Part shown: positions 13,197-48,063 of the stretch, piece by piece
Layout: every line of letters begins with the position of its first letter
Position numbering within the stretch: the first letter of the stretch is position 1
NCBI GenBank assembly: GCA_965229085.1
Contig: OZ245859.1
Span: 1,140,207-1,204,206, forward strand
Direction: 5' to 3'
DNA: 64,000 bases
Origin: Kaistia sp.
GTDB taxonomy: Bacteria > Pseudomonadota > Alphaproteobacteria > Rhizobiales > Kaistiaceae
Position numbers and translations under genes: made by a program
The notes under the pieces: generated by a model
What the model was told of the DNA's origin: nothing
Databases searched by the model: none
What the model saw: the letters and a program-made list of their open reading frames with translations, nothing else

Positions 13197-13250
13197 GAAC
13201 GAGTTCTCATCAAACTCGCCGCATGTGTCAAGCAAGGTCCAATCGGCGTA

Positions 13251-13278
13251 TTGACATATGTCGCGACACAGTTATCAT
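13251..13278 (+). promoter_or_regulatory. Putative sigma70 promoter overlapped by palindromic operator
   Basis: TTGACA(13251-13256)-16 bp-TATCAT(13273-13278); perfect palindrome GACATATGTC at 13253-13262. Confidence 0.6.
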
Positions 13279-27695: not shown

Positions 27696-28655
27696 TTGCC
27701 AAACGAATCCGACAGTGATTTCGGTACGTTGCGAGAGCAGGCCCGCGTTGCGTGGCTCTATTTCACCGGCGGCCTCACGCAGAAGGAAATCGCCGACCAG
27801 CTTGGCATCACACGCCTCAAGGTCAACCAGATCATAGGCGCTGTCAGGGCGGATGGTTCGGTTCGAATCGACGTCGACCTCCCGCTGATCGACTGCGTTC
27901 AGCTTGAGGAAGCGCTGAAGGAGAAATTCGGCCTCAGCGACGCTGTCGTCGTCCCGACCGTCGGTGACCTCTCCGAGCAGCAGCGCACGATCGGCGAAGC
28001 CGGCGGCACCATGGTCAATGATCTGATCGGCGGCCGCGATCTCGGGATCGGGATCGGCTGGGGTCACACGCTGAGCTTTGCCACGCGCCGGCTGACCGCC
28101 AAAGCGAGCCCCAATTCATGGGTGGTCAGCCTGACGGGAGGCTTCACGCGCGCCTCAGGCAACAACACGTTTGAAATCGCAACGTCGGTCGCCCGGGCGC
28201 TCAATGTCGAGTGCCACTACATCACCGCGCCGATCTATTGCTCCAGCACCGAGAGCCGCGAGACTCTGCTGCACAATGACGAGATCGCCGACGTGCTCGC
28301 CCGCACCGAAATCGCCGAGGTGGCGCTGATTTCCTGCGGCGATCTTTCCGAGCGGTCGCCGATCGTCTCACTCCGGATCGTCAAGGACAATATCGACGAT
28401 CTTCTGCGCCTCGGCGCGGTCGGGGAGATCCTTGGCTGCTTCCTGGCGGCCGACGGTCGCCCGGTCGAGCACTTCCTGAACGACAGCATCATGGCCATGT
28501 CGCTGGAGGCGCTCAAGCTGAAGCCGATATCGGTGCTGGTTGCCGGGGGCATCCACAAGGCGCCGGTCATCTATGCCGCGCTTCGCGGCAAATACGTCAA
28601 CCGCCTCGTCACCGACGAGCTCGTGGCGCGCGTCCTGCTCGAACGCGCGCCCTGA
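27696..28655 (+). CDS. SorC/DeoR sugar-binding transcriptional regulator #2 (TTG start)
   Basis: ARVAWLYFTGGLTQKEIA, GIGWGHT, VAGG, LVTDE. Confidence 0.88.
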   Translation: MPNESDSDFGTLREQARVAWLYFTGGLTQKEIADQLGITRLKVNQIIGAVRADGSVRIDVDLPLIDCVQLEEALKEKFGLSDAVVVPTVGDLSEQQRTIGEAGGTMVNDLIGGRDLGIGIGWGHTLSFATRRLTAKASPNSWVVSLTGGFTRASGNNTFEIATSVARALNVECHYITAPIYCSSTESRETLLHNDEIADVLARTEIAEVALISCGDLSERSPIVSLRIVKDNIDDLLRLGAVGEILGCFLAADGRPVEHFLNDSIMAMSLEALKLKPISVLVAGGIHKAPVIYAALRGKYVNRLVTDELVARVLLERAP

Positions 28656-28687: not shown

Positions 28688-30466
28688 TCAGCCGCGTGAA
28701 CGCAACGCGGCATCCAGCGCTTCGGTCATGGCCTTCAAGGTCACGAAGGTCGAGGCTGCACCGGGGTCGATGTGACCGATCGAGCGATCGCCGAGCTTTG
28801 CGGCCCGGCCACGGCGCGCGGCGATCGTTGCGGTTGCGTTCATCCCGGCCTCGGCTCCAGCCGTCGCAGCCTGCATGGTCTCGAGCGACGAGGCACCCTT
28901 CGCGACGGCTTCCCTCGCCCGCTCGGCTGCCGGAACCCAGGCATCGACCATCGTCTTGTCGCCGGGCTCCGTGCGGCCGCGCTCGCGAATGCCGCCGGAC
29001 GCAGCCTCGATCCAGGCCGCAACCGCGTTGGCATCGAGGTTCAGGCGATCGCTGACGGCTGTGCCAGCGCGCAGGAATGCCGTCGCATAGAGCGGCCCCG
29101 ACGACGCACCGACAGCATCGAGGAACGTCTTGGCCATCCGCTTGCACGTCGCTTCGATCGTCTCGCCTTCGGGCGCGGCCGCCAGAGCCTTCGCGACAGC
29201 CGTCCAGCCGATCTCCATGGTGACGCCGTGATCGCCGTCGCCGATGACGCCGTCGAGCTCGCTCAGCCAATCGCGCTTGGCGATGATGGCGAGGCCGACA
29301 TTCTCCATCATGCGGCGGAAGATGGCCGGCGTGATGTCGCCGGATGTCTTCAAGGGCAGATCCGAGGCAGCAGATCCGTCCGACGCCGCGTCGGCACGCA
29401 TCGCCGTGCTGCTTGCATGAGCCGAGTGGCGTCCTGAGGCCTGCGCGAGCGTCTCGCCCACCCTGAGGGCAACGCTGTGGCAGGGATGATCAAGCAGCGG
29501 CTTCAATTCCGCATCGAGCTTCATCAGCGTGATGGAGGCGCCGGCCATTTCAAGCGAGGTCGCGTATTCGCCGACCCAGCTATGATGGATACGGATGCCC
29601 CGCTCTTCGAGCAGCAGGCGCGCCTTCCTGTGAAGGAGGTAAAGCTCGATATAGGTCGTGGCGCCGAGGCCGTTGACCAGCAGCGCAACTTCGTCGCCTG
29701 CGGCAATCGTCAGATCCGCGAGGATCGTCTCGACAAGATCCGTTGCAACCTCGTCGGCACTTTCGATATGCGCGCGACGAACGCCCGGCTCGCCATGCAG
29801 GCCCATGCCGATTTCCATCTCGTCGTCGCCGATCTCAAAATTCAGCTTGCCCGTCTGCGGCAGGGAACAGGCAGACAGCGCGACGCCCATGGTGCGCGTC
29901 ATGGCGTTGGCATGGCGGGCGAGCCGGTACACTTCGTCGATGCCCATCATGCGGTCGGACGCAGCGCCAGCCACCTTGAAAACGAAGAAATCGCCCGCAA
30001 TCCCTCGCCGCTCGCCAATGCGGTCCTTAGGCGCCGATGCGACGTCGTCGGTCACCGCGATGCTGCGCACGGGCGTGCCGCCGCGGCTCAGCTCGTCGAC
30101 GGCCATGTCGAAGTTCATGACGTCGCCGTTATAGTTGCCATAGAGGAAGACGATGCCGGCTCCGTTGTCGACCTGGCGCGCCGCATCGAGAATGAAAGCG
30201 GGCGACGGCGACGCAAAGACGTTCCCGATGGCGCTGGCATCAGCGAGCCCGCGCCCGACATAGCCGGCAAAGGCAGGCTCGTGTCCGGAGCCGCCGCCGA
30301 CGACGACGCCGACCTTCCCCGCGCGGGGACCATTGACCGCGACAATGGCGCGGCCCGTCGTTCCCGCACCGCGCAGGATGTCGGGATGGGCACCGAGCAT
30401 GCCCTCGATCATTTCCGGGATGATGCGATCAACCGCGTTGATCAGCTTCTTGGTCTTTGAGGTCAT
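28688..30466 (-). CDS. Fused DhaK-DhaL (DAK1/DAK2) ketose kinase #1 (triose/tetrulose kinase family)
   Basis: GGGSGHEP, NYNGD, GLHGEPG; DhaL part GDGDHG, GPLY, GDKTMVD, GRAAKLG, DPGA. Confidence 0.9.
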   Translation of the reverse strand: MTSKTKKLINAVDRIIPEMIEGMLGAHPDILRGAGTTGRAIVAVNGPRAGKVGVVVGGGSGHEPAFAGYVGRGLADASAIGNVFASPSPAFILDAARQVDNGAGIVFLYGNYNGDVMNFDMAVDELSRGGTPVRSIAVTDDVASAPKDRIGERRGIAGDFFVFKVAGAASDRMMGIDEVYRLARHANAMTRTMGVALSACSLPQTGKLNFEIGDDEMEIGMGLHGEPGVRRAHIESADEVATDLVETILADLTIAAGDEVALLVNGLGATTYIELYLLHRKARLLLEERGIRIHHSWVGEYATSLEMAGASITLMKLDAELKPLLDHPCHSVALRVGETLAQASGRHSAHASSTAMRADAASDGSAASDLPLKTSGDITPAIFRRMMENVGLAIIAKRDWLSELDGVIGDGDHGVTMEIGWTAVAKALAAAPEGETIEATCKRMAKTFLDAVGASSGPLYATAFLRAGTAVSDRLNLDANAVAAWIEAASGGIRERGRTEPGDKTMVDAWVPAAERAREAVAKGASSLETMQAATAGAEAGMNATATIAARRGRAAKLGDRSIGHIDPGAASTFVTLKAMTEALDAALRSRG

Positions 30467-36448: not shown

Positions 36449-36512
36449 CGCCCACGGGACAATATGTCAATTGTCATGACATGATGACAATTGACATATT
36501 GTCCCGTGGGCG
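36449..36512. repeat. Perfect 29-bp inverted repeat with 6-bp spacer in a divergent promoter region
   Basis: CGCCCACGGGACAATATGTCAATTGTCAT (36449-36477) -GACATG- ATGACAATTGACATATTGTCCCGTGGGCG (36484-36512). Confidence 0.95.
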
Positions 36513-36574: not shown

Positions 36575-37537
36575 ATGACATCTGACGCGATCGTTCCGGC
36601 GGAGTTCGACGATGTCGTCGTCTGGGCGGCCTGGCTCTATTATGAAGAGCAGCTGAACCAGAGCGAGATCGCCGCGCAGCTCGGCGTGTCCCGCGCGACG
36701 ATCGTCAACTACTTGCAGGAAGCCCGCGAACGCGGCGCCGTACGCATTGTCATGAGCGCGGAGGTGATGGCGCGCAGCGGCGTGGCACGGGCGCTGGCGG
36801 CGCGTTTCGGGCTCGAGGAAGCGCTGGTTATTCCGCGCAATCCGAAGGCCGACGCCGGCGAGCGTCTTCCCGCGCTTGGAGCCGCCGGTGCGCGGCAGCT
36901 TGAACGCATGATCACGCCGGGCGAGACGATTTGCGTCTCCTGGGGGCGGACGGTCCTCGCCGTCGCCGATGCCATCGCGCTGTCCCGTCCTGTCGCGGGG
37001 CTGAGCGTCGTCCAGGTCACGGGCTCGGCGATGGGCAAACGGGAATTCTCGTCCGAGCTTTGCACGGCGATCATGGCGCGCAATCTTGGCGCGACCAGCT
37101 TCAACATGCATGCACCGGCGGTGCTGAGCAGCGCGGAACTCTGCCTTGCCCTGCGAAACGAGCCTGTCCTGCAGCATCAGTTCGATCTGATCCGGCAGGC
37201 AAAGACCATCGTCTTCGGCGTCGGTGGGTTGGGGCCTGAAAGCACGATGCGCTTTGCCGATGTGACAACGGACGCCGAAATCGACGCCTATGCGGCCAAC
37301 GGCGCGAAGGCTGTTCTGATCTGCCGCTTCCTCGACGCCGAGGGGCAACAGGTCACACGCGACTTCGACCGGCGCACGATCGGGATCGAACTGCCGGAGC
37401 TCCGCGCCATCCCGCGACGGCTCTGCGTCGCGGGCGGAACATGGAAGATCGACGCTCTGAAGGCGACGCTGAACGGCGGCTTTGCGACCCATCTCGTCAC
37501 CGATATGGAAACCGCCGAGGGGCTGCTTGCCAGTTAG
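36575..37537 (+). CDS. SorC/DeoR sugar-binding transcriptional regulator #3
   Basis: WAAWLYYEEQLNQSEIA, CVSWGRT, VAGG, LVTD. Confidence 0.92.
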   Translation: MTSDAIVPAEFDDVVVWAAWLYYEEQLNQSEIAAQLGVSRATIVNYLQEARERGAVRIVMSAEVMARSGVARALAARFGLEEALVIPRNPKADAGERLPALGAAGARQLERMITPGETICVSWGRTVLAVADAIALSRPVAGLSVVQVTGSAMGKREFSSELCTAIMARNLGATSFNMHAPAVLSSAELCLALRNEPVLQHQFDLIRQAKTIVFGVGGLGPESTMRFADVTTDAEIDAYAANGAKAVLICRFLDAEGQQVTRDFDRRTIGIELPELRAIPRRLCVAGGTWKIDALKATLNGGFATHLVTDMETAEGLLAS

Positions 37538-38478
37538 TGCCGGATCGGCGTCGTGTTCATGAAATCCAGCGTCTCCCGGAACGAACGGATACCGGCATCC
37601 GAGCCGAGGCCCGTCGCGACGAGCGCCGCCGAAGCCTGAGCGAAATTGAGCGCCGTCTTCAAATCCATCTTGTGATGGAGCGCGGTGATGAACCCGGCGT
37701 CGAACGCATCGCCGCAACCGGTCGTATCGACCACCTGAATGTCGAAGGCGGGCTGGCGAACCACCTGCCCGCCATGGTCCATGAAGCAGACGCCGTCGCC
37801 TCCTAGAGTGAAGACGCAGTGCTTCACACCCCGTTCAATGAAGAAGCGCCCGGCAGCCTCGACCTCGGCCTCGCCGGAAATCAGGCGCGCCTCTTCGATC
37901 GAGGGCATGAAGTAGTCAATATTGGCCAGAAGCGGCGCGATCAGCCCGAGCGTTCCCGGATTGGCGCCGAGGAGATCGAATGTCACGGTTCGTCCGCGGC
38001 GCTTGGCCTCGGCCAGCAACCGCGCGCTCGGCTCGCCATCGAGCTTTGCCAGCAGGCCGGTGCCCCCAAGATGGATGATCGGAGGGGCCAGCACAGCGTC
38101 CAGCGCCGCATCGGGGACCTCAAAGTGGTCGGACGCGCCGCGCTGATGCAGCGCCGGTCGATCGCCGTTTCGCCGGACGTTCAGGATCGTCGCGGATGTC
38201 GGAACACCCTTGAGCTGCTGCATCTGCCCGGTATCGACGCCGAACTTGCGGAGCGTCGACAGGACGAAGTCAGCCTTTTCGTCGTCCCCGACGGCGCCGA
38301 CGGCCAGGCAGTTCAGCCCGAGCTTGGCGAGATCGACGACGGTTCCGCCGGCCGTGCCAGCAACGGTCAGCCGGATTTCCTCTATGAACTCGACATTGCC
38401 GCCGGCAGGGATCGCATCGACAGGCCGCCCGAGCACATCAAGAATATAGAGACCGATGACCGAGACATCGTGGCTCAT
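37534..38478 (-). CDS. PfkB/ribokinase-family carbohydrate kinase
   Basis: AGTAGG, VGDDEKA, PSIEEA, VDTTGCGDAF. Confidence 0.9.
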   Translation of the reverse strand: MSHDVSVIGLYILDVLGRPVDAIPAGGNVEFIEEIRLTVAGTAGGTVVDLAKLGLNCLAVGAVGDDEKADFVLSTLRKFGVDTGQMQQLKGVPTSATILNVRRNGDRPALHQRGASDHFEVPDAALDAVLAPPIIHLGGTGLLAKLDGEPSARLLAEAKRRGRTVTFDLLGANPGTLGLIAPLLANIDYFMPSIEEARLISGEAEVEAAGRFFIERGVKHCVFTLGGDGVCFMDHGGQVVRQPAFDIQVVDTTGCGDAFDAGFITALHHKMDLKTALNFAQASAALVATGLGSDAGIRSFRETLDFMNTTPIRH

Positions 38479-38516
38479 GTTTTCCCCCAAAGATCAGTTG
38501 TGAGCTCCGCGACGGT

Positions 38517-39545
38517 TCAGCCGCGACTGCGAAGCGCGAAAATCGTTCCTGCCAGCAGAATGAACGCCCCGACAATAGCCAGTTGCAGCGTGCTGGGAAT
38601 GCCCACGAAGATCAGCACGTTGCTGACGATCGTGATCAGCAGAACGCCGAGCAGCGTGCCGATGACGGTGCCCGAGCCGCCGGTGATCCGCGCGCCGCCG
38701 AGCACCACAGCCGCAATGACCTCGAGCTCCATCCCCGAAAGGTCGAACGGATTGGCGAGGCGGTTGCTGGCGACATGCACGATGCCTGCGACGCCCGCCA
38801 GAAGCCCGGCCCAGCCGAATACGAACAACCGTACCCGGAAGAGATTGAACCCCAACCGCTCAGCGATGGCCGGATTACCGCCGACGGCGAAGATCGCCCG
38901 GCCAATCAGCGTGCGCTCGAGGATGAACCAGGTCACCAGCGCCGCCAGGGCGAGCACGAGCACGGTCGCCGGCAGCATCGAGATCGCGCCGTCTGCGCCG
39001 ACATGCGTGTAGAGCGAGGCCTTGCCGAAGGCGTCCATCGCGGCGGGAATGTTCATGAACAGCGCCGTGCCGACGAAGGTCAGGAGAAAGCTGCGGATGA
39101 TGTATTGCGTGCCGATCGTCACGATCAGGGACGGCGCACGCAGGACATGAACGAGCAGGCCGTTCACGACGCCAAACGCGGCTCCGCCCATCGCGGCCAG
39201 GGGCAGAATGATCCAGAGCGGCATGCCGGGAAAGACGTTCGTCACCAGCATCGTCAGCGCATACATCACGAAGGCTGCGATCGCCGTAAACGACACGTCG
39301 ATGCCGCCGGCCGCCAGCACGACGAGCACGCCGAGGGCGAACAGCCCGCGCACGACCGATGCGCGCAGGATGTCGAACAGATTGTTGACCGCGAGAAAGT
39401 CCGGGTTGGCGATCGCGACGACGATGATGGTCAGGATCGTCAGCGCCAGCGTGAACAGCTCTGGCCTGCGCTTCATCAGCTCCCAGGCTCGTGCCACGGG
39501 GCTTTTTATCGTGGCGTCCGCGGGGTGAGCGGCCATATCGGTCAT
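38517..39545 (-). CDS. CUT2 sugar ABC permease
   Basis: GGIDVSF, GRAIFAVGGN, AAVVLGG. Confidence 0.9.
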   Translation of the reverse strand: MTDMAAHPADATIKSPVARAWELMKRRPELFTLALTILTIIVVAIANPDFLAVNNLFDILRASVVRGLFALGVLVVLAAGGIDVSFTAIAAFVMYALTMLVTNVFPGMPLWIILPLAAMGGAAFGVVNGLLVHVLRAPSLIVTIGTQYIIRSFLLTFVGTALFMNIPAAMDAFGKASLYTHVGADGAISMLPATVLVLALAALVTWFILERTLIGRAIFAVGGNPAIAERLGFNLFRVRLFVFGWAGLLAGVAGIVHVASNRLANPFDLSGMELEVIAAVVLGGARITGGSGTVIGTLLGVLLITIVSNVLIFVGIPSTLQLAIVGAFILLAGTIFALRSRG

Positions 39546-41128
39546 TGTGCGCCTTCCTTCAGGCCGTCGCCGTCACTGGCCATGGCCTGATAGATCGTGT
39601 CTTCGCTGACTTGGTCCGCCGCATAGGTGGCGACGATGGCCCCTTGCCGCATGACCGAGATCCGGTCGCAGTTCTGGATGAGTTCCGGCAGATCGTCGCT
39701 GATGATGACGACGGCCATGCCCTCGTCGGCGAGCCGCTGAATGATGCGAAAGATCGTATCCTTCGAGCCGACATCGACACCGACGGTCGGGCCATGCAGG
39801 ATCAGGAGGCGCGGCTCGATGGTCAGCCAGCGCCCGATCAGAACCCGTTGCTGGTTGCCGCCGGAGAGAGACTGCACCGGCACGGTCACGTCGGGGGCGA
39901 CCACCTGCAGATCGGCGACGGTCTTTTCCGCCAGCTTGCGGGCCCTTCGCGCACTGATCATGCCAAGCGCGCCGCAGAGGCGGTCAAGCACCGGCAGGGT
40001 GATGTTGTCCTGAATGGGCTTCTCGAGGAAGAGGCCCTCGGTGAGCCGATCCTCGGGCACATAGCCGATGCCCTCGCGGATCGCATCGGCAGGGCTCTGT
40101 GGTGCAATGGCCTTGCCGTCGAGCCGCATACGCCCCTGATCGGCCGGCGCCACGCCTGCCAGAGCCAGCGCCAGTTCGTTTCGCCCGGAGTCGAGCAGTC
40201 CCGTGAAGCCCAGGATTTCGCCGCGGCGGACGGAGAAGGTCAGGCCGCTGAACGCGGTGCCTGCGCCGAGATTCTCGACCTCCAGCAAGGTCGTGCCGAG
40301 CTTCGGTTCGGTCCGGTACCGGGCCTCGCTAATCTCGCGACCGGTCATCCAATGGCTGAAGTCCGCCTTGGCATGGGTGGCGACGTCGAGCTCAGCGACC
40401 TTCTCGCCATCGCGCATGACGATGGCGTGGCCGCCCAGCGACTTGCACTCGTCCAGCTTGTGGGTGACGAACAGGACGGCGACCCCGCGATCCAGCAGAC
40501 TGCGAACGACGCGCAGCAAGTTGTCGACTTCCTGCCGGGTCAAGGACGTCGTTGGCTCGTCCATGATCACCATGCGCGCCTCCGCGGCGATGGCGCGTGC
40601 GATGGCGACCAACTGGCGCGTGGCGAGTGGCAGAGTGTCGGTGCGGCGCGCAAGGAAGGCGCGGTCGGTCGGGAGGTTGACTTGCGCCAGCGCGAGCGCC
40701 GCGGTCCGGTAGAGCTCCGCGACATCCAGCCGCCGCATCAGGGCACCGCCCGCCGCGACGAGTTGCCGGGTCAGCGCGACATTGTCGGCCACCGAGAGAT
40801 TGGGGAGCAGCGAAAGATCCTGGTAGACCGTCTCGATCCCGGCCTTCAGAGCGCCGATTGCGCCAAGATCGCCGGCGACAGTCCCCGTCGGCACGCCGCC
40901 GATCAGGATCTGCCCTTCATCGGCGCTTTGCGCGCCCGAGATGATCTTGATCAGCGTGGACTTGCCACAGCCGTTCTCGCCCATCAGGTGATAAATCTGG
41001 CCAGACCGGATCGTCAGGCTGACATTCTTCAGCGCCCGCACGCCGCCGAACGACTTGCGTACGTTGCGGATCTCGAGAAATGCCGGGACTTGCCCTGCCT
41101 GAGGATCGCTGGACTGCTGGGACTGCAT
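39542..41128 (-). CDS. CUT2 sugar ABC ATPase
   Basis: GENGCGKST, MDEPTTSL, SGGNQQ, degenerate second Walker B (HGPTVGVD). Confidence 0.92.
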   Translation of the reverse strand: MQSQQSSDPQAGQVPAFLEIRNVRKSFGGVRALKNVSLTIRSGQIYHLMGENGCGKSTLIKIISGAQSADEGQILIGGVPTGTVAGDLGAIGALKAGIETVYQDLSLLPNLSVADNVALTRQLVAAGGALMRRLDVAELYRTAALALAQVNLPTDRAFLARRTDTLPLATRQLVAIARAIAAEARMVIMDEPTTSLTRQEVDNLLRVVRSLLDRGVAVLFVTHKLDECKSLGGHAIVMRDGEKVAELDVATHAKADFSHWMTGREISEARYRTEPKLGTTLLEVENLGAGTAFSGLTFSVRRGEILGFTGLLDSGRNELALALAGVAPADQGRMRLDGKAIAPQSPADAIREGIGYVPEDRLTEGLFLEKPIQDNITLPVLDRLCGALGMISARRARKLAEKTVADLQVVAPDVTVPVQSLSGGNQQRVLIGRWLTIEPRLLILHGPTVGVDVGSKDTIFRIIQRLADEGMAVVIISDDLPELIQNCDRISVMRQGAIVATYAADQVSEDTIYQAMASDGDGLKEGAQ

Positions 41129-41221
41129 CGCCGTGTCCTGATGTGGTCTGCCTGTTTGCAAGGCCGCGATCGTTCGCGGCCTTGCCTGTCATCGATCCGC
41201 TTGAGGGATCAGAACGGGTAA

Positions 41222-42220
41222 TCAGAAAGGATACTTGGAGAAGTCGTCCTTGCCGACATCGACCCAGGCCTGACCCTGGATCAGGATGCCCTTGCCGGGT
41301 CCCTTGGTGACCTTGACGGCATTGTAGCCGGGAACGCCGAGATCCATTCCGTCAGTGATCGGCTTGCCGTCGAGCACCATCTTGGAGACGACGTTCATGA
41401 CGTAGCCGGCGTCCTTCGGATCCCAGAAATAGATCCGGTTGACCGCGCCCGACTTCAGGTAAGGACCGCTGTCCTTGGGCAGACCGAGGCCATAGACGCA
41501 GATCTTGCCCTGAAGGCCGGCTTCCTCGACCGCACGGCCGATGCCGATCACGTCGATGGCCGACGAGCCCTGGAAGCCCTTGATGTCGGGATGCAGGCGC
41601 AGGATTTCCTTGGCCTTCTCATAGGCGCGGTTCGCGTCGTTGAACGACTCGTTCTTCGCCGAAACCAGTTCCATCTCAGGATACTGCTTGGCGTTTTCCG
41701 CGCCGGCATCGACCCACTGGTTATGCGTCAGGCTGCCGAGCGAGCCGACGAACGTCGTCCACTTGCCCTTCTTGCCCATGCATTCTGCGAGGCCCTCGTT
41801 GATGCGGCGGCCGAAGGCTGCGTTGTCGAAAGCCTCGATGTCGGCGTCCGCATTGACGATCGTGCTGCCTTCATGCGCGATGACCTTGATGCCGCGCTGC
41901 TGTGCACGACGCAAAACGCCTTCAAGCGCCGAGGGGTCCATCGGAACGACTGCGATCGCCGAAACGTCGCGCGCCACGAGGTCCTCGATGATACGCGACT
42001 GCTGCGCCGCATCAGCCTTGGCCGGTCCGATCTGGCTGACCGAGAGCTCGGGATTGTCCTTGCCGAAGGCGTCGACGCCCTCGTTCATGCGGATGAACCA
42101 GTTCTCACCGGTAACCTTCACGACGGTCGTGATATTCGGCTTGTCAGCGGCCGCAGCCGCGCCGGTCGCCAGGATTCCCATCAGGGCAACGCTGCCTGCC
42201 AGTCTCGCGATCAGACTCAT
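41222..42220 (-). CDS. CUT2 substrate-binding protein of the LsrB/RhaS-like clade
   Basis: VVKVTGENWF, ADAAQQ, HNQW, FWDPKDAG. Confidence 0.85.
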   Translation of the reverse strand: MSLIARLAGSVALMGILATGAAAAADKPNITTVVKVTGENWFIRMNEGVDAFGKDNPELSVSQIGPAKADAAQQSRIIEDLVARDVSAIAVVPMDPSALEGVLRRAQQRGIKVIAHEGSTIVNADADIEAFDNAAFGRRINEGLAECMGKKGKWTTFVGSLGSLTHNQWVDAGAENAKQYPEMELVSAKNESFNDANRAYEKAKEILRLHPDIKGFQGSSAIDVIGIGRAVEEAGLQGKICVYGLGLPKDSGPYLKSGAVNRIYFWDPKDAGYVMNVVSKMVLDGKPITDGMDLGVPGYNAVKVTKGPGKGILIQGQAWVDVGKDDFSKYPF

Positions 42221-42291: not shown

Positions 42292-43275
42292 TTAGCGCCT
42301 GGCACGAAGCCAGGGCGTAAGATCCACTCGCGCCGACGCCAGAAGGGCGAGCAGCAGCGCACCCCAGGCCAGGTCGCGGAAAAAGTTCGAAATCTGCATG
42401 AAGTTGAAAAGGCTCGAGAGCGTCTGCAGCGCAGTCGCCGCCAGGAGCACGCACAGCACCTTGCCGTAGCCGCCCTCGGGCTTAACCCCGCCAAGCACGG
42501 CGATCAGGATGGCGATCAGCACATAGGAGCTGCCGTAATCCCATTTCACCGACGAGTTGCGCGAGGCGATCACGACCCCTGCGATCGAGGCGAGCACGCC
42601 GCAGATCGTATAGGTGACGATGATCATCCGCCGCTCCGAGATCCCGCCATAGCGAGCGGCTTTGGCGTTGCTGCCCAGAAGCATGAGCTTCACGCCAAAG
42701 GGCGTGTATTTCAGCAGGAACCCCAGCAGCGCCGCAATCACGACAAACAGCGTGAAGCAGAGCGGAACGCCGAGAACCGGCAGGTTGCCGAAGTCGTCGA
42801 GCGGCGGGATGTAGCCCATGCTTACCGCGGAGCCGTTTGTCAGGAAGACGGCGATGCCGGTGAACAGAAGCTGGGTTCCCAGCGTCGCGATGAGCGGCGT
42901 CAATCCCGCCAACGAAATCACGATCCCGTTGATGAGCCCGCCGACCAGTCCGACAGCGAGCGCAATGCCCGCGAAGGTCCAGGCGAACAGCATCGGCGAA
43001 GCGTCCGGCGCGATCATCGACTTGGTCAGGAGGAAGGCGACGATCCCGGCGAGATTCGCGAGGGCGATGCCCGAAAGGTCAATGCCGCCATTGCCTGAGA
43101 TCATCGCCAGCGTCACGCCCAGCGCCAGCAGTCCGAGCTCAGGCACCTGCGCCGCCATCGACTGCAGGTTGTAGCTGTCAATGAAGTTGTGCCCGGCAAG
43201 CACGGCACCTGCCACAAGCACGACGACATTGATCGACGCCAGGAACAGCGTCTGGCGATCAAAAGCAGATGACAC
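42292..43275 (-). CDS. CUT2 sugar ABC permease (GTG start)
   Basis: GGAGG RBS before GTG 43275; GGIDLS, TPFG...LGSNAKAARYGG, AVLGG. Confidence 0.85.
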   Translation of the reverse strand: MSSAFDRQTLFLASINVVVLVAGAVLAGHNFIDSYNLQSMAAQVPELGLLALGVTLAMISGNGGIDLSGIALANLAGIVAFLLTKSMIAPDASPMLFAWTFAGIALAVGLVGGLINGIVISLAGLTPLIATLGTQLLFTGIAVFLTNGSAVSMGYIPPLDDFGNLPVLGVPLCFTLFVVIAALLGFLLKYTPFGVKLMLLGSNAKAARYGGISERRMIIVTYTICGVLASIAGVVIASRNSSVKWDYGSSYVLIAILIAVLGGVKPEGGYGKVLCVLLAATALQTLSSLFNFMQISNFFRDLAWGALLLALLASARVDLTPWLRARR

Positions 43276-43337
43276 TTCAATCCTCCCGAGCGACCAGGCG
43301 TTGCCACCCGGTCGTTTCCGTATTTCGCCGCGAACAG

Positions 43338-43369
43338 TGTCAATTGTCAATGATAATTGACGTATGTCA
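43338..43369. promoter_or_regulatory. Putative SorC-family operator/promoter
   Basis: TGTCAATTGTCA (identical 12-mer to the 36449 repeat arm) and TTGACGTATGTCA. Confidence 0.6.
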
Positions 43370-43394
43370 CCATTCGCCTTGAGCCCATCCTCAG

Positions 43395-45455
43395 TCAGGC
43401 CCCCGGCCCCAGAACCGTCACGGCGGGCGACCGGCAGGGGTGGTGGAGCAAAGAGGTCAGTTCGTCGTCCAGATGCAGCAGGGTGAGCGACACCCCCTCC
43501 ATATCGAGGGACGTGTAGTAGGGGCCGACAAGGCTCGCATCGACGATGAGGCCATGCGCCTTCAGGCGCTGCCGGACCCGACGGTGCAGGATGTAGAGTT
43601 CCATGGCCGGTGTGCCGCCGAGCGAGTTCACCAGCACTGCGACGCGGTCGCCATGCACCGGCTTCATTTCGGCAAGGATTCGGTCGAGCAGCAGATCGGC
43701 ACAGTCGTCGGCCGAAGCGAGCGCCCGGCGCACCACACCGGGCTCGCCATGCACGCCAACGCCAAGTTCCATGTCTTCGGGACCAAGTTCGAAACTGGGC
43801 CGACGCGTATCCAGAAGGCGCGCCGGCTCGAGAGCGAGGCCCATCGTGTAGGTGCGTGAGGCGGCGCGCCGGGTGATGAACTCGCACGCCTCCAGGCTCA
43901 GCATCCGGTCGGCCGCCGCCCCGGCAATCTTGAAGACGAAGATGTTCCCCGCCACGCCCCGTCGCGAGGCCCGTGATTCCAGAGGGGCTGAAGCGATGTC
44001 GTCGATGGTGACGATCTGGCGAACGCGCAGGCCTTCGGCCTCGGCGATCTCGGCGGCCATCTCGAAGTTCATGACGTCGCCGGAGAAGTTGCCATAGATA
44101 TAGAGCAGCCCTGCCCCGCCGTTCACGGCGCGACTTGCGGCCAGGATGGGCCCGGGCGGGGGCGCCGCGAAGATGTTCCCCACGGCCGCCGCGTCCGCAA
44201 GCCCACGGCCGACGAAGCCCCAGAAGCCCGGCTCGTGGCCTGATCCGCCGCCGATCACGATGCCCACCTTGCCGGGCCGGGGTGCGGCCGCCGCCATCAC
44301 CGCGCGCGGCGAGCCGGGCACAGGAACAATCAACGACTCATGCGCGAGAAGCGCGCCGGCGAGGCATTCGTCCACGGCGTCCTGCGGCGCATTGATCAGC
44401 TTCTTGGCGTGGCTCCGCGCCATGGCCGGCAAGGAAGACGGCGCCTCCGCGCGCCGCAGCGGCTCGATCCAGCCCTCGGCGTTCAGGATGCCCCGGCCGG
44501 TCGCCGTATCCGTCACCAGCACATTCACATGCTTGGCCCGAAGCGCGGCGAGGATCGCGGCGATCTTGTCGATACCGCCGGCAACGGCGATGCGCTGCGG
44601 AATCCGGCGGAGCATCTCGAGGTCGAGACCGATCGTCCGGTCATGCAGCGGCCCCATGACCGGCTCGCCACGCGCCGAAATGAAGCGCCCGACAATGCTG
44701 CCAACGGCGGCATGGTAATAGGAATGCTGGTCGACGCCGTCGAGAAAGCCACTTGTGTGGATCGTGCTTTCCGGGCGCAGCGATGAGATGCCCATGACGA
44801 TCCGGTCCGCCTCGGCCAGGATCGCCATCTGTTCCGCGAGGACAGGCTCGCGCAGCAGCATTTCGCGCATCTCGGGCGAGGACACGATGGCCGGAGCCGA
44901 GAGCGGAATGCACCGCGCCGTCAAGGCCTCGGCGAGACGCGAGGCGCAGGCTTCCGGCGTCCATGGGATACGCGCCGTCGTCCCGCCAGTCGCCTGGACC
45001 ACGCGCAGATCGGCCAATCCAGGATGGTCTAGGGCATCGGCCAGAGCCAGAACCGTCCGGCCCCAGGTCACGGCGATGGTGTCGCCAGGCCGGACGAAGC
45101 TCTTGAGGACCTGTGCCCCTGCCGCCCCCAGCCGTGCGATCAGCGGGCGGTCGCCACCGTCGGTCGGAATGACGAGACAATCCTGCAGGCCGAAGTGGCC
45201 CTTCAGCGCCTGAGCGATGGAAAGCTCGCGAAAGCGATCCGGAGCAATCTCGATATTGACGATGCCACGGATGCGGGCGTCGGCGAGATAGGTGTTCACC
45301 GAGGCGCGGGAAAGGCCCATCTTCTCGGCGATCTCGCCCTGCGTCAGGCCTTCCTCGTAATAGAGCCAGGCAGCCCACAGCAAGGTGTCGTCGCCAAACC
45401 GCAAGGGCATGGCGACCGTCGCGTCGCTTTCGGACTTCTGTGGTTGGCGCGCCAT
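43395..45455 (-). CDS. SorC-family regulator fused to a C-terminal DhaK domain
   Basis: One uninterrupted 687-aa frame: WAAWLYYEEGLTQGEIA...VAGG...LVTD, then KKLINAP...GGGSGHEP...NFSGD...GVHGEPG. Confidence 0.9.
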   Translation of the reverse strand: MARQPQKSESDATVAMPLRFGDDTLLWAAWLYYEEGLTQGEIAEKMGLSRASVNTYLADARIRGIVNIEIAPDRFRELSIAQALKGHFGLQDCLVIPTDGGDRPLIARLGAAGAQVLKSFVRPGDTIAVTWGRTVLALADALDHPGLADLRVVQATGGTTARIPWTPEACASRLAEALTARCIPLSAPAIVSSPEMREMLLREPVLAEQMAILAEADRIVMGISSLRPESTIHTSGFLDGVDQHSYYHAAVGSIVGRFISARGEPVMGPLHDRTIGLDLEMLRRIPQRIAVAGGIDKIAAILAALRAKHVNVLVTDTATGRGILNAEGWIEPLRRAEAPSSLPAMARSHAKKLINAPQDAVDECLAGALLAHESLIVPVPGSPRAVMAAAAPRPGKVGIVIGGGSGHEPGFWGFVGRGLADAAAVGNIFAAPPPGPILAASRAVNGGAGLLYIYGNFSGDVMNFEMAAEIAEAEGLRVRQIVTIDDIASAPLESRASRRGVAGNIFVFKIAGAAADRMLSLEACEFITRRAASRTYTMGLALEPARLLDTRRPSFELGPEDMELGVGVHGEPGVVRRALASADDCADLLLDRILAEMKPVHGDRVAVLVNSLGGTPAMELYILHRRVRQRLKAHGLIVDASLVGPYYTSLDMEGVSLTLLHLDDELTSLLHHPCRSPAVTVLGPGA

Positions 45456-46114
45456 CACAGCGCCGCCCGTTCGCGTCGCTGCATCGCATCACGCAAGGCA
45501 GCGATGATGATCGTCGCCGAGGCAGCGCCGGGATCGACATGGCCGAGCGTGCGCTGCCCGAGGCGCGCGGCGCGCCCGACGGATGCGACCATGGCCCGCG
45601 TCGCCTCGCGCCCCTCTTCCGCCGCGAGCAAGGCTGCATCGAGGCAGGCAAGCGGACCCAATCCCTCTGCCTGCGCCTGCTGTACTGCCCACGCCGCGGG
45701 CGACCAGACATCGAGCATGGTCTTGTCGCCGGGCTGCGCCTTGCCCCGCTGGCGGATGCCTTCTTCGAAGGCGGGAATGAGGTCCGGGATGGATTCAGCG
45801 GCTATGTCGCGCTGGCCGGCAAACAACTGGCCCGCCCGCATGAACGCGCTTGCATAGAGCGGACCCGTGGTCGCGCCGACGGCACCGAGAAAGGACTGCG
45901 CTGCAACCGGGAAAAGATCGCCTGCCGCAGCCCCGCTCATGGCGGCAGCAGAACTGGCGCGAACCACGGCGGCGAAACCTTCGGCCATCGAGTTGCCGTG
46001 ATCGGCATCCCCGATGACCCCATCGAGCACGCCGAGCTCGGTTCGCGCCTCCGTCAACCTGGCGGCGATGGCGCGAAACAAGTCCGTAATCTGATCCGCA
46101 TTCAAGCGCGCCAT
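45455..46114 (-). CDS. dhaL: Stand-alone DhaL (DAK2) subunit
   Basis: LDGVIGDADHG, GPLY, GDKTMLD, GRAARLG, DPGA. Confidence 0.88.
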   Translation of the reverse strand: MARLNADQITDLFRAIAARLTEARTELGVLDGVIGDADHGNSMAEGFAAVVRASSAAAMSGAAAGDLFPVAAQSFLGAVGATTGPLYASAFMRAGQLFAGQRDIAAESIPDLIPAFEEGIRQRGKAQPGDKTMLDVWSPAAWAVQQAQAEGLGPLACLDAALLAAEEGREATRAMVASVGRAARLGQRTLGHVDPGAASATIIIAALRDAMQRRERAAL

Positions 46115-46128
46115 GGCGATGGCTCCCC

Positions 46129-47868
46129 TCAGGACAGACGCTTCTCGAACGCGTCGCCCAGCGTCACGAGGATGAGGCAGCATGAGGTGGCGCCGGCGTC
46201 CGGAACGCCGCGCGACCGCTCGCCGAGACGGCTCGCCCGGCCTACCCTGGCCACGAGATCGACGGTGCTGTCGCGTCCCTGTTCGGCCGCCAGACGCATC
46301 GCCTGCAGCGCCGCAGCGAAGCCTTGCGACTTCGTCGCGTCGAAGGCCGCCACGGCTGGCACAAGCGTATCGATCAGCGTCTTGTCGCCGACATTGGCCG
46401 AGCCGGTGCGGCGGACGCCTGCAAGGCCTGCGTTCAAAAGCGCCGAGAAGCCATCCGCGTCGACAGCGCTGTGACCTGCGATGGCAGTCGCCATCTCCTG
46501 GAACATGAAGCCGTAGAGCGGCCCCATCGATCCGCCGATTTCCGACATCAGGACGTCCGACAGCACGCTGAGCGCCTGGTCGAGGCTGAGGTCCTTGCCC
46601 TCGATCCGCTCGGCAGCGCGGCCAAACCCCTTGGCCATGTTGATCCCGTGGTCGCCATCGCCGATCAACCCATCGATTTCCGACAGATGCGCCTTGTTGG
46701 CGACGATCACCGCTGCCAGCTCGGCGACAATGGCGTGCGACCCGGCATTGCGCACCGAAGGGCCGTTGATCACCACATCAGTTGCAACGGCCGACTGTGC
46801 CCCGTGATGCGAAACCCGGGTCTTGCGCACACCGGCTTCAGCCGCATCGCCCACGGGCGCAGCAACCGTTCCGGTCGTCAAGCCCGGCGCCAGCGCCTCG
46901 AGATCGAGGAGAGCCTTCGTCTCCTCGTCGAGAGCAATAACGGTCAAGGTCGCGCCGACCATCTCCAGCGAGGTGAAGTAGTTGCCGACGAACGCCTTAT
47001 GGACACGCATTCCCCGCGCCTCGAGCCCCGTCTCGATCCGGTCATAGAGCACATAGAGTTCGTTGACCGGCGTCGCTCCGAGGCCCGAAAGGAGAACCGC
47101 GACTTCGGTCCCCGGCGCCAGACCATGATCATCCATGACAATGGCCAACATGTCGTCGGCCACAGCGTCCGCGCTCTTCAGCGCCTCAACCCGCGTGCCG
47201 GGCTCACCGTGATGGCCGATACCGACCTCCATGGTTCCCGGCGCGATCTGGAAATTCGGATGGCCAACGCCCGGCAGCGTGCAGGGACCAAGGCCGACGC
47301 CGACCGAGCGGCAGGCGTCGATCGCCTTCTGCGCCGCGGCCTTCACTTCGGCGAGCGAACCACCTTGCGCGGCCTTGGCACCGCCGATCTTCCACATGAA
47401 GATCTCGCCCGCGACGCCGCGCCTTTTGGCGCGCTCAGCGGGGGATGCGGAACAAACATCATCATTGGCAACAACGGTCGCGACCTCGATACCGTCAGCG
47501 GCGACCATCTCGGCCGCCATCTTCACGTTCATGTTGTCGCCGGCATAATTGCCATAGAGCACCGCGACGCCGGCGCCGCCATCGGCGGCCCGGATCGCAT
47601 CGGCGAAGCTCTTCGCGGTCGGCGAGGAAAACAGCTCCCCCACGGCCACGGCATCGACGAGATTGCGGCCGGTATAGCCGATGAAGGCCGGCTCATGACC
47701 CGATCCACCGCCGGTCACAATCCCGACGCGGCCCGTACGCGGCGCCGCCGTCGACACCACAACCCGCGGGTTCGTGGGGTCAAGCCGAACGAGGTCCCGG
47801 TGGGCCTTGACGAAGCCGGCTACGGTCTCGTCGACCAGATCGTCCGGATCATTGATGAACCGCTGCAT
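46129..47868 (-). CDS. Fused DhaK-DhaL ketose kinase #2
   Basis: GGGSGHEP, NYAGD, GHHGEPG; GDGDHG, GDKTLID, GRASRLG, DAGA. Confidence 0.9.
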   Translation of the reverse strand: MQRFINDPDDLVDETVAGFVKAHRDLVRLDPTNPRVVVSTAAPRTGRVGIVTGGGSGHEPAFIGYTGRNLVDAVAVGELFSSPTAKSFADAIRAADGGAGVAVLYGNYAGDNMNVKMAAEMVAADGIEVATVVANDDVCSASPAERAKRRGVAGEIFMWKIGGAKAAQGGSLAEVKAAAQKAIDACRSVGVGLGPCTLPGVGHPNFQIAPGTMEVGIGHHGEPGTRVEALKSADAVADDMLAIVMDDHGLAPGTEVAVLLSGLGATPVNELYVLYDRIETGLEARGMRVHKAFVGNYFTSLEMVGATLTVIALDEETKALLDLEALAPGLTTGTVAAPVGDAAEAGVRKTRVSHHGAQSAVATDVVINGPSVRNAGSHAIVAELAAVIVANKAHLSEIDGLIGDGDHGINMAKGFGRAAERIEGKDLSLDQALSVLSDVLMSEIGGSMGPLYGFMFQEMATAIAGHSAVDADGFSALLNAGLAGVRRTGSANVGDKTLIDTLVPAVAAFDATKSQGFAAALQAMRLAAEQGRDSTVDLVARVGRASRLGERSRGVPDAGATSCCLILVTLGDAFEKRLS

Positions 47869-48049
47869 CACCACTCCCGCAAATCAACATACCGGCAGAG
47901 CACCCAGCGCACAGTTTCAGCGCCGGAACGAGCGCATGCAGAATCTCTCCTGCCTCGCGACAGGCGCTCCAGGAAGCTGTGCCGGATGTCCTCCTCCGAC
48001 GTCGCCGACAATTTCCGCGACGCTCTGAATTATGTAATTTGCGCAGAAT

Positions 48050-48063
48050 TTATCATATGTCAA
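48050..48063 (-). promoter_or_regulatory. Putative SorC-family operator upstream of the DAK operon
   Basis: Minus strand TTGACATATGATAA, matching the motif at 13251 and 36491. Confidence 0.5.

What the first reader, a model, noticed from the sequence alone, without database searches (positions are those of the whole stretch)
43395..46114. Transcription factor fused to a DhaK kinase domain, with a translationally coupled DhaL partner and no DhaM
Seen: one ORF joins a complete SorC regulator (HTH plus sugar-phosphate domain) to a DhaK domain keeping the substrate-binding residues (GHEP, GD, HGEPG). The upstream dhaL overlaps it by TGATG. No DhaM/PTS phosphodonor is in the window. By eye, both halves resemble the distant fused kinase at 28688 more than the adjacent one at 46129. 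Established: DhaK and DhaL act as corepressor and coactivator of E. coli DhaR, and DhaQ partners DhaS in Lactococcus, always as separate proteins. Inference: a one-component dual sensor that binds an unphosphorylated ketose covalently in DhaK and its phosphate in SorC, with DhaL reporting ATP/ADP, or that makes its own inducer on the DNA. I know of no experimental characterisation, though similar fusions may be annotated in other rhizobia.
Basis: partly seen in the sequence, partly recalled or inferred. Interest (0 to 1): 0.75.

Follow-up and report, generated by a model that had tools for sequence, protein, structure and literature searches.

The report
SorC repressor fused to DhaK kinase domain
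This is a real, common but never-studied alphaproteobacterial protein that joins a sugar-operon repressor to the sugar-binding half of a dihydroxyacetone-type kinase, has its own nucleotide-binding partner, and probably switches on a ketose/polyol uptake operon through an operator found here.

Summary
ORF 43395-45458(-) encodes HTH + SorC sugar-binding domain + a complete DhaK domain. The dhaL gene (45455-46114) overlaps its start (GTGATG).

- **Not an artefact, not rare:** at least 120 protein clusters share the architecture. NCBI already names it [quoted passage not shown]. I found no experimental paper.
- **Conserved module:** 26 of 28 loci examined also carry a separate, slower-evolving kinase pair K1/L1 (here fused, 46129-47874) beside SorC~DhaK2 + DhaL2.
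- **No DhaM:** it is absent from the window and from 27/27 related loci, against 36/52 control loci.
- **Catalytic residues:** all DhaK2 and DhaL2 catalytic residues are invariant.
- **Operator:** a 14-bp palindrome, TYGACAWWTGTCRA, often in tandem about 21 bp apart, marks the module's promoters (26 sites against 0.4 expected). Window sites are 48050-48063, 43357-43370 and 43337-43350.

Best reading: an autoregulated SorC-type repressor with a tethered DhaK2·DhaL2 ketose input module, probably making its own phospho-ketose inducer. This is a new variant of the known DhaK/DhaL-as-coregulator theme, of moderate interest.

The parts
48050..48063 (.). Operator-like palindrome O1 (TTATCATATGTCAA), 176 bp upstream of the K1-L1 start. 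It overlaps a sigma-70-like -35/-10 pair (ATGATA-16-CATAAT, 48056-48029).
   Evidence: PWM score 18.0; promoter scan; sites in the same position in L002, L028 and L081
46129..47874 (-). K1-L1: single-chain ATP-type dihydroxyacetone-kinase-family enzyme (Dak1+Dak2), the first gene of the operon and the presumed catalytic kinase
   Evidence: NF011049 588 bits, above the 492 cut-off. Orthologues 72-88% identical in 26/28 loci, split or fused. K1 clade SH-aLRT 100.
45455..46114 (-). dhaL2: dedicated DhaL partner, 219 aa, with Asp31/Asp36/Asp38 (E. coli D30/D35/D37) and the GPLYA, GDKTM and DPGA motifs
   Evidence: The L2 clade is separate from L1. The stop overlaps the fusion's start.
43395..45458 (-). 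sorC~dhaK2 fusion CDS (GTG at 45458, or ATG at 45455)
45261..45401 (-). HTH DNA-binding domain (aa 20-66), the most conserved part of the protein
   Evidence: mean top-residue frequency 0.86; 14/47 positions invariant
44481..45227 (-). SorC effector-binding (Sugar-bind) domain, aa 78-326, with the WGRT, VVQATGGT, PESTIH and AGGIDK motifs
44406..44480 (-). Variable Pro/Ala/Arg-rich linker, aa 327-351. Its internal Met346 is not conserved (1/120).
   Evidence: (pLDDT below 50 for 334-349)
43413..44405 (-). DhaK2 domain, aa 352-682. His408, Asp461 and His570 correspond to E. coli His56, Asp109 and His218.
43337..43370 (.). Tandem operator-like palindromes O2a (43357-43370, TTGACGTATGTCAC) and O2b (43337-43350, GTGTCAATTGTCAA), 20 bp apart. 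They lie in the 120-bp gap between the fusion's stop and the permease start and overlap a promoter-like GTGACA-16-GACAAT.
42292..43274 (-). ABC permease 1 (GTG at 43274 after GGGAGG)
41222..42220 (-). Periplasmic sugar-binding protein (Peripla_BP_4; RhaS/LsrB-like; best PDB match 5BRA)
39542..41161 (-). ABC ATPase (two ABC_tran domains)
38517..39545 (-). ABC permease 2
37534..38490 (-). PfkB-family sugar kinase, last gene of the string. Found beside the module only here and in L018.

Best explanation
SorC~DhaK2 is an autoregulated SorC/DeoR-type repressor of a ketose (or polyol-derived ketose) uptake and phosphorylation module.

**General part (about 0.7 likely)**
- It binds 14-bp palindromes, TYGACAWWTGTCRA, which usually occur as two or more copies about two helical turns apart. 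It presumably binds as the dimer-of-dimers tetramer typical of the family.
- In the window these sites overlap two promoters: P1 (in front of K1L1-dhaL2-sorC~dhaK2) and P2 (in front of the ABC transporter and pfkB).
- The catalytic work of the pathway is done by the separate, slowly evolving K1/L1 kinase.
- The tethered DhaK2 domain and its stoichiometrically co-translated DhaL2 form the signal-input module.

**Specific mechanism I commit to (about 0.4 likely)**
- DhaK2 captures the free ketose on His570 as a hemiaminal.
- DhaL2·ATP phosphorylates it. No DhaM is involved.
- The phospho-ketose, made at high local concentration on a flexible 25-aa tether, occupies the intact SorC effector pocket.
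- This loosens the tetramer/operator complex and derepresses the operon.

In short, it would be LsrR plus LsrK in one complex: a repressor that makes its own inducer even while the catalytic kinase is repressed.

**Shown:** the architecture, conservation of the catalytic residues, the conserved module, the operator motif and its positions, and the absence of DhaM nearby.
**Inferred:** repression, tetramer binding, kinase activity of K2/L2, and product binding to the effector domain.
For: **Architecture and breadth**
- Domains. Folds: (TM-score normalised to the target: 0.84-0.93 to DhaK; about 0.9 to the DeoR and LsrR effector domains).
- All 120 best homologues have the same architecture.

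**Selection on all parts**
- Mean top-residue frequency is 0.86 for the HTH, 0.77 for Sugar-bind and 0.77 for DhaK, against 0.48 for the linker.

**Catalytic residues**
- The equivalents of E. coli His56, Asp109 and His218 are invariant in 28/28 K2 domains.
- L2 keeps LDxxIGDADHG, GPLYA, GDKTMxDxWxP and GHxDPGA.

**Conserved module**
- K1+L1+SorC~K2+L2 occurs in 26/28 loci. L2 is always adjacent, and in the eight 'upstream' loci its stop overlaps the fusion's start.
- K2, L2 and K1 trees are congruent. K2/L2 branches are 2-3 times longer than K1/L1.

**No DhaM**
- 0/27 loci carry DhaM, against 36/52 stand-alone dhaK loci found with the same query. None is in the window.
- K1/L1 orthologues switch between the split form and the classical single-chain ATP-type form.

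**Operator**
- With at most 2 mismatches there are 26 sites against 0.37 in shuffles. With at most 3 there are 43 against about 9.
- The sites lie in the module's promoter regions. Tandem copies 20-23 bp apart occur in about 18 loci.
- The fusion is the only SorC-family ORF within 10 kb in 27/27 loci.
- The sites overlap promoter-like hexamers in the window.

**Family knowledge (PMC11229326)**
- SorC repressors bind bipartite operators as tetramers.
- The DeoR half-operator, TTGAACAAAATTCAA, is of the same type as the motif found here.
- Family effectors are sugar phosphates, and DHAP is a confirmed CggR effector.

**Effector-domain motifs**
- WGRT, QxTGG, PEST, GRF and AGGxxK are shared with three stand-alone SorC paralogues in the window, which must be ligand-controlled.
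Against: - No experiment exists and none was found in the literature.
- Conservation of the effector domain is also explained by its role in tetramerisation.
- Conservation of the K2/L2 catalytic residues is also expected for a pure binding sensor. L. lactis DhaQ keeps the covalent His, and E. coli DhaL signals through its nucleotide state.
- If the product were DHAP, a central metabolite, product sensing would not be specific.
- A plain SorC repressor sensing the K1/L1 product would seem to suffice, so the selective reason for the tether is not explained.
- The AF2 model gives no confident interdomain geometry (pTM 0.53).
- The window holds three further SorC paralogues with similar HTHs and similar palindromes. 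Within this genome the operator assignment is therefore not exclusive.
- The whole genome could not be searched for DhaM.
Confidence: 0.45

Rival explanations
1. Occupancy / nucleotide-state sensor (E. coli DhaR-like or L. lactis DhaQ/DhaS-like logic in cis). DNA binding is set by the state of the tethered DhaK2, that is free, ketose-bound, or docked to DhaL2·ATP or DhaL2·ADP. For example, K2 could dock onto, or dimerise across, the SorC tetramer. The SorC pocket binds nothing specific, and any phosphorylation only resets the sensor.
For: - DhaK and DhaL are established protein co-regulators. This is my own knowledge of Bächler 2005, Christen 2006 and Shi 2014; the PDB entries 4LRX, 4LRY and 2IU4 appear among the hits.
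- K2/L2 evolve 2-3 times faster than K1/L1, as expected if catalytic efficiency is under relaxed selection.
- A separate catalytic pair is present in 26/28 loci.
- A dedicated L2 is always retained.
Against: - The linker is variable, unstructured and about 25 aa long. Coupling would therefore need a docking surface, and there is no evidence for one.
- The effector-domain motifs are as conserved as in stand-alone paralogues.
- The protein does not score as a DhaQ (TIGR02362, 229 bits against a 413 cut-off).
Confidence: 0.3
2. Plain bifunctional ('Rosetta-stone') protein. K2/L2 is simply a second catalytic kinase isozyme, for instance for the other enantiomer or another ketose. It happens to be fused to the operon's ordinary SorC repressor, and there is no signalling between the halves.
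For: - All catalytic residues are kept.
- K2/L2 are sister to a bona fide ATP-type kinase lineage, DAK_28688 and L027.
- L018 has the fusion and L2 but no K1/L1 within 10 kb.
- NCBI's name calls the protein 'bifunctional'.
- Two DAK-family erythrulose kinases coexist in the M. smegmatis tetritol pathways (my own recollection of Huang et al. 2015, not checked here).
Against: - The fusion has been kept, without fission, in every one of about 120 clusters and 28 loci. In the same loci the K1-L1 pair fuses and splits freely.
- Tethering a flux-carrying enzyme to a low-copy DNA-bound tetramer is odd.
- K2/L2 evolve faster than K1/L1.
Confidence: 0.15
3. Assembly or sequencing read-through of separate sorC and dhaK genes.
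For: The DhaK part begins with the canonical KKLIN N-terminus, and in this genome a Met lies 6 residues upstream.
Against: - The open junction is present in all 120 aligned homologues from many genera and in 27 independent genome loci.
- The Met is unique to the window (1/120).
Confidence: 0.01

Closest known systems
E. coli DhaR with DhaK (co-repressor) and DhaL·ADP (co-activator) controlling dhaKLM
   Same: DhaK- and DhaL-type proteins are used as the signal input of a transcription factor. The substrate is bound covalently on a His, and the nucleotide state of DhaL is a possible signal.
   Different: - DhaR is an AAA+ enhancer-binding activator with no homologue in the window.
- In E. coli the same K/L proteins are the enzyme, and they need DhaM/PTS.
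- Here a dedicated paralogous K2/L2 pair exists beside the enzyme pair, K2 is covalently fused to a SorC repressor, and DhaM is absent from the neighbourhood.
Lactococcus lactis DhaQ/DhaS (a DhaK paralogue plus a TetR-family activator)
   Same: A DhaK paralogue is dedicated to regulation, separate from the catalytic DhaK, and keeps the covalent substrate-binding His.
   Different: - DhaQ is a free protein that pairs with a TetR regulator, and no DhaL paralogue is involved.
- The fusion scores below the DhaQ model (229 against 413 bits) and better against DhaK proper.
- The partner here is a SorC-family domain in cis, plus DhaL2.
LsrR / LsrK / LsrACDB (AI-2 uptake)
   Same: - A SorC-family repressor; LsrR is the best solved match to the N-terminal half (1.8e-34).
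- A CUT2 ABC importer with two permeases and an LsrB/RhaS-like binding protein.
- The inducer is the phosphorylated form of the imported small keto-compound, made by a dedicated kinase.
   Different: - LsrK is a free FGGY kinase. Here the kinase is DAK-type and fused or tethered to the repressor.
- The binding protein is only distantly LsrB-like.
- There are no LsrF or LsrG genes.
B. subtilis DeoR and CggR (prototype SorC repressors, PMC11229326)
   Same: - HTH plus a NagB-like effector domain.
- A palindromic TTGA-type half-operator (DeoR: TTGAACAAAATTCAA) in a bipartite operator, bound as a tetramer.
- Sugar-phosphate effectors, including DHAP for CggR.
   Different: - They have no enzyme domain.
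- The position of the DeoR Schiff-base Lys (my recollection: Lys141) aligns with Thr157 here.
- The C-terminus of the effector domain carries a 330-aa DhaK domain.
ATP-dependent DAK-family ketose kinases (C. freundii DAK; the D- and L-erythrulose kinases of M. smegmatis, the latter from my own knowledge)
   Same: - DhaK and DhaL domains with no DhaM.
- K2/L2 are sister to such a kinase, DAK_28688.
- In Rhizobium-type loci a GolD/DthD-family polyol dehydrogenase sits directly upstream of K1.
   Different: K2 and L2 are separate chains, and K2 is fused to a repressor. The substrate is unknown.

Membership tests
SorC/DeoR-subfamily transcription regulators | N-terminal HTH followed by an effector-binding domain of about 250 aa (Pfam Sugar-bind PF04198 / IPR007324) | tested here: met
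   PF04198 at 3e-59 over 252/257 profile positions, with HTH hits at aa 31-68. Matches to LsrR, DeoR and SorC structures at 1e-28 to 1e-34. Effector-domain TM-score normalised to the target of about 0.9.
SorC/DeoR-subfamily transcription regulators | Binds a bipartite (palindrome or repeat) operator in the promoter of the regulated operon | tested here: inconclusive
   The conserved palindrome TYGACAWWTGTCRA is enriched 70-fold and lies in the module's promoters, often in tandem at about 21 bp. The fusion is the only SorC ORF in 27/27 loci. Binding itself has not been tested.
SorC/DeoR-subfamily transcription regulators | Released from DNA by a small (usually phosphorylated) sugar effector bound in the effector domain | not testable with these tools
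   Only motif conservation with ligand-controlled paralogues is available.
DhaK subunit/domain of dihydroxyacetone kinases | Full Dak1 fold | tested here: met
   PF02733 at 7e-109 over positions 2-313 of 313. Foldseek against E. coli and L. lactis DhaK gives TM-score normalised to the target of 0.84-0.93.
DhaK subunit/domain of dihydroxyacetone kinases | Substrate His (hemiaminal), general-base His and Asp (E. coli H218, H56, D109) | tested here: met
   H570, H408 and D461 are invariant in 28/28 loci and 120/120 homologues.
DhaK subunit/domain of dihydroxyacetone kinases | Scores as an equivalog of PTS-type DhaK (TIGR02363) | tested here: not met
   351 bits against a cut-off of 406.
DhaL subunit (gene 45455-46114) | Dak2 fold, equivalog score, and the Mg/nucleotide Asp triad | tested here: met
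   TIGR02365 at 161.8 bits against 138.3. D31, D36 and D38, plus the GPLYA, GDKTM and DPGA motifs, are conserved in L2.
PTS-dependent DhaKLM kinase | A DhaM (EIIA-Man/HPr/EI-like) phosphoryl donor encoded with dhaK and dhaL | tested here: not met
   No hit in the window or in 27/27 related loci. The same query finds DhaM in 36/52 control loci. The rest of the genome could not be searched.
ATP-dependent single-chain DAK (for the neighbour at 46129-47874) | Dak1 and Dak2 in one chain, scoring above NF011049 | tested here: met
   588 bits against 492.
DhaQ-type co-activator (L. lactis) | Equivalog score to TIGR02362 and a TetR (DhaS) partner | tested here: not met
   229 bits against 413. No TetR gene lies in the module.
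DhaR-controlled system | An AAA+ enhancer-binding protein, DhaR, adjacent | tested here: not met
   tblastn with E. coli DhaR gives no hit below E = 1 in the window and none in the 27 loci.

The most novel reading that the evidence does not exclude
The complex is a repressor that enzymatically synthesises its own inducer. A DNA-bound SorC tetramer carries four tethered DhaK2·DhaL2 kinase units. These convert the first imported ketose molecules into the phospho-ketose, which then opens the repressor's own effector pocket. Induction would therefore be substrate-specific, gated by ATP, and independent of basal expression of the pathway kinase. I know of no bacterial one-component regulator described as working this way.
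Probability: 0.35. Interest if true: 0.7.

Novelty: new variant of a known kind. Interest (0 to 1): 0.5.

Why it matters
DhaK and DhaL are the textbook case of metabolic enzyme subunits that also act as transcription co-factors, but only as free proteins (DhaR in E. coli, DhaQ/DhaS in Lactococcus). Here the same fold has been hard-wired onto a different repressor family. It keeps a private nucleotide-binding partner and sits next to a separate catalytic pair.

The system is well suited to experiment:
- two small proteins;
- a defined 14-bp operator;
- two promoters;
- three invariant catalytic residues to mutate;
- a short list of candidate ligands (DHA, erythrulose and their phosphates).

It can be used to ask how an enzyme becomes a sensor, and whether a repressor can make its own inducer. 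It would also assign a function and a regulon to a protein family that is common in rhizobia and marine Rhodobacterales and is so far annotated only by domain content.

Tried and rejected

- Whole-genome search for DhaM/PTS genes: the genome search was shut (note, 38).
- The look-up of encoding contigs for the window's own protein: not on record.

**Literature**
- Seven searches and one DOI look-up found no paper on a SorC-DhaK fusion.
- PMC4777399, on dha regulon context, does not mention it.

**Leads that did not hold**
- L027 (Lichenihabitans) looked like a possible unfused K2. It is a split DAK_28688-type K+L pair with no SorC gene.
- Internal translation start producing free DhaK2: Met346 occurs only in the window (1/120).
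- The 9-mer TTGACATAT within the window alone was only borderline enriched (8 against 2.9; 1/100 shuffles). The signal became decisive only as the 14-bp palindrome across loci.
- The AF2 model gave good domains but no trustworthy interdomain arrangement (pTM 0.53), so no structural argument about coupling is made.
- Looking for distant SorC-DhaK fusions in the 50%-identity library found only one other full-length cluster (P0124), plus fragments. Other long hits are Dak2-Dak1 permuted kinases or a Dak1-DeoC fusion.
Full report
**1.

On the minus strand, ORF 43395-45458 (687 aa from GTG; 686 aa from the ATG at 45455, as in the database protein P0004) has three parts. These are an HTH, a full SorC-family Sugar-bind domain (PF04198, aa 78-326, 3e-59) and a full Dak1 domain (PF02733, aa 368-679, 7e-109). 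Residue numbers below refer to the 687-aa form.

- The motifs GGGSGHEPG, GNFSGDVMNF and GVGVHGEPG are all present.
- The gene upstream (45455-46114, 219 aa, ATG preceded by GAGGGGAG) passes NCBI's DhaL equivalog cut-off (161.8 against 138.3 bits).
- Its TGA overlaps the fusion's start in CTGTGATGG.
- Upstream again lies a single-chain Dak1-Dak2 kinase (46129-47874), which scores 588 bits against a 492 cut-off for NF011049.
- tblastn with E. coli DhaM and DhaR finds nothing in the window.
Identity is 50.0% against 44.7% for DhaK and 42.9% against 36.2% for DhaL. Trees put K2 with DAK28-K, and L2 with DAK28-L, in clades with SH-aLRT 99.

**2. It is neither an artefact nor rare**

- The 120 best homologues (58-89% identical, 664-698 aa) all carry PF04198 + PF02733. 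Many bear the NCBI name [quoted passage not shown].
- Named sources are all Alphaproteobacteria: Paracoccus, Aureimonas, Rhizobium, Sinorhizobium and others.
- In a library clustered at 50% identity, the only other full-length fusion among the 150 best hits is one cluster (P0124). The clade is therefore narrow but populous.
- No solved structure contains both halves.
- No paper on the fusion was found.

**3. Anatomy of the protein**

- The AF2 model (pLDDT 84.5) gives three well-folded units joined by low-confidence segments at 67-74 and 334-349. The pTM of 0.53 means the relative domain positions are not defined.
- Foldseek matches the C-terminal half to E. coli and L. lactis DhaK (TM-score normalised to the target 0.84-0.93). 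It matches the N-terminal half to DeoR, SorC and LsrR.
- Across 120 homologues the HTH is the most conserved part (top-residue frequency 0.86). Sugar-bind and DhaK are equal at 0.77.
- The 25-aa linker is variable (0.48) and rich in Pro, Ala and Arg.
- The Met just before KKLIN is unique to this genome (1/120), so no conserved internal start exists.
- The equivalents of E. coli DhaK His56, Asp109 and His218 (H408, D461, H570) are invariant in all 28 loci.
- DhaL2 keeps the Mg/nucleotide Asp triad (D31, D36, D38) and the GPLYA, GDKTM and DPGA motifs.
- The effector domain keeps the WGRT, QATGG, PEST, GRF and AGGxxK motifs. It shares them with LsrR and DeoR, and with three stand-alone SorC paralogues in the window.

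**4. The conserved module**

I compared 27 related genome loci with the window.
- In 26 of the 28, SorC~K2 and L2 sit beside a second pair, K1+L1. This pair is orthologous to the window's 46129 kinase (72-88% identical) and is either split or fused.
- L2 is always adjacent to the fusion. In eight loci, including the window, it lies upstream with an overlapping stop and start; these eight form one clade (SH-aLRT 97). In twenty loci it lies just downstream.
- K1 and L1 each form their own clade with support 100. K2/L2 branches are 2-3 times longer than K1/L1 branches between the same genomes.
- No locus has a DhaM homologue (0/27). The same query finds one in 36/52 stand-alone dhaK loci from other phyla.
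- The fusion is the only SorC-family ORF within 10 kb in all 27 loci.
- Two transporter contexts occur:
  - An LsrB/RhaS-like ABC system with two permeases, as in the window.
  - In Rhizobium-type loci, an eight-gene operon: ATPase, permease, binding protein, SDR, K1, L1, SorC~K2, L2. Its SDR belongs to the GolD/DthD polyol-dehydrogenase family (399 bits against 286).
- The substrate is therefore a small ketose, either imported as such or made from a polyol. DHA or a tetrulose are the obvious candidates, but it cannot be named from sequence.

**5. A candidate operator**

- The 14-bp palindrome TYGACAWWTGTCRA occurs 26 times with at most 2 mismatches in the 28 sequences, against 0.37 in shuffles. 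With at most 3 mismatches the counts are 43 against about 9.
- Sites lie almost always just upstream of the first gene of the module, or in the divergent transporter/K1 intergenic region.
- They commonly occur as two to four copies 20-23 bp apart.
- In the window there is one site 176 bp upstream of the K1L1 start (48050-48063), overlapping a promoter-like ATGATA-16-CATAAT.
- A tandem pair (43357-43370 and 43337-43350) lies in the 120-bp gap between the fusion's stop and the permease start (GTG at 43274 after GGGAGG). It overlaps GTGACA-16-GACAAT.
- Published work on DeoR and CggR (PMC11229326) shows that SorC repressors bind bipartite operators as dimer-of-dimers tetramers. The DeoR half-operator is TTGAACAAAATTCAA, and effectors are sugar phosphates, including DHAP for CggR. 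The motif found here is of that type.
- Caveat: the window holds three other SorC paralogues with similar HTHs and similar palindromes at their own promoters (13251; 36464/36484). Cross-talk within this genome is possible.

**6. Interpretation**

I hold with about 0.7 confidence that the protein is a functional, autoregulated SorC-type repressor of this uptake and phosphorylation module, and that K2/L2 is its input device.

For how the signal enters, I favour (about 0.4) an active K2·L2 kinase that makes the phospho-ketose next to the effector pocket. The reasons:
- the catalytic residues are intact;
- L2 is obligatory;
- the linker is flexible;
- the family senses sugar phosphates;
- the LsrR/LsrK system works on the same logic.

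The main rival (about 0.3) is a sensor that reads occupancy or nucleotide state, as in E. coli DhaR or L. lactis DhaQ/DhaS, without a ligand in the SorC pocket. A plain two-function fusion without cross-talk (about 0.15) is disfavoured. The fusion is never split in about 120 clusters, whereas K1-L1 fuses and splits freely.

**7. Novelty**

DhaK and DhaL as co-regulators are established, and paralogues associated with regulators were noted long ago (my own recollection of Erni et al. 2006, not verifiable here). The covalent SorC fusion with a private DhaL beside a catalytic pair is annotated only by domain content and is uncharacterised. It is a new variant of a known kind.

An earlier follow-up in this scan, on another genome (e1-3034117), reached the same reading. 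I reproduced its main points independently, but that agreement is not independent evidence.

**8. Limits**

Noticed in passing
window 12207-13235(-) and 13251-13264: A fourth SorC-family regulator gene (about 50% identical to the one at 36575 and 43% to the fusion's SorC half). A strong copy of the same palindrome (TTGACATATGTCGC, PWM 20.6) lies 16 bp upstream of its ORF start, next to the glycerol-phosphate dehydrogenase cluster.
   Followed up: partly
window 36449-36512; SorC gene 36575-37537(+): The perfect 29-bp inverted repeat flagged by another first-stage note contains two weaker copies of the same motif type, 20 bp apart (36464 and 36484, PWM 10.6 each). The adjacent stand-alone SorC gene most likely starts at the ATG at 36575 (MTSDAIV...), not at the TTG at 36491.
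   Followed up: partly
window 27696-28655(+) and 28688-30466(-): A stand-alone SorC gene lies convergent with the DAK_28688 kinase, which is the closest relative of K2/L2. This looks like the unfused state of the same pairing. The listed 715-aa ORF is over-extended. The real start is probably the Met before SKTKKLIN (about 30466), giving 592 aa.
   Followed up: partly
window 46129-47874 compared with L001, L003, L004: The catalytic K1-L1 pair is a single chain in the window, L003 and L004. It is split into two genes in the closest relative, L001 (88% and 74% identical), and in most other loci. Fusion and fission of this pair are evolutionarily labile.
   Followed up: partly
window 37534-38490(-); L018 3401-4336: A PfkB-family kinase with no equivalog assignment ends the window's transporter operon. 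Its only counterpart near a fusion is in L018 (55% identical). L018 is the one complete locus that lacks K1/L1 and has a CUT1-type transporter instead.
   Followed up: no
L005 7353-8135, and the equivalent gene in about 20 loci: A GolD/DthD-family short-chain polyol dehydrogenase (399 bits against a 286 cut-off) lies directly upstream of K1 in Rhizobium-type operons. This hints at a tetritol or polyol to ketose to ketose-phosphate route.
   Followed up: partly
proteins P0159, P0224, P0265, P0239, P0143: Other unusual DAK-family architectures appear in the representative library. Three are chains in the permuted order Dak2-Dak1 (557-569 aa). One is a Dak1-DeoC/LacD aldolase fusion (663 aa). One is a Dak2-fragment plus Sugar-bind protein that looks like an L2-SorC read-through.
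   Followed up: no
window 41222-42220(-): The binding protein of the adjacent ABC system is closest to PDB 5BRA (2e-74). It is distantly LsrB/RhaS-like, which echoes the LsrR-like nature of the regulator.
   Followed up: no
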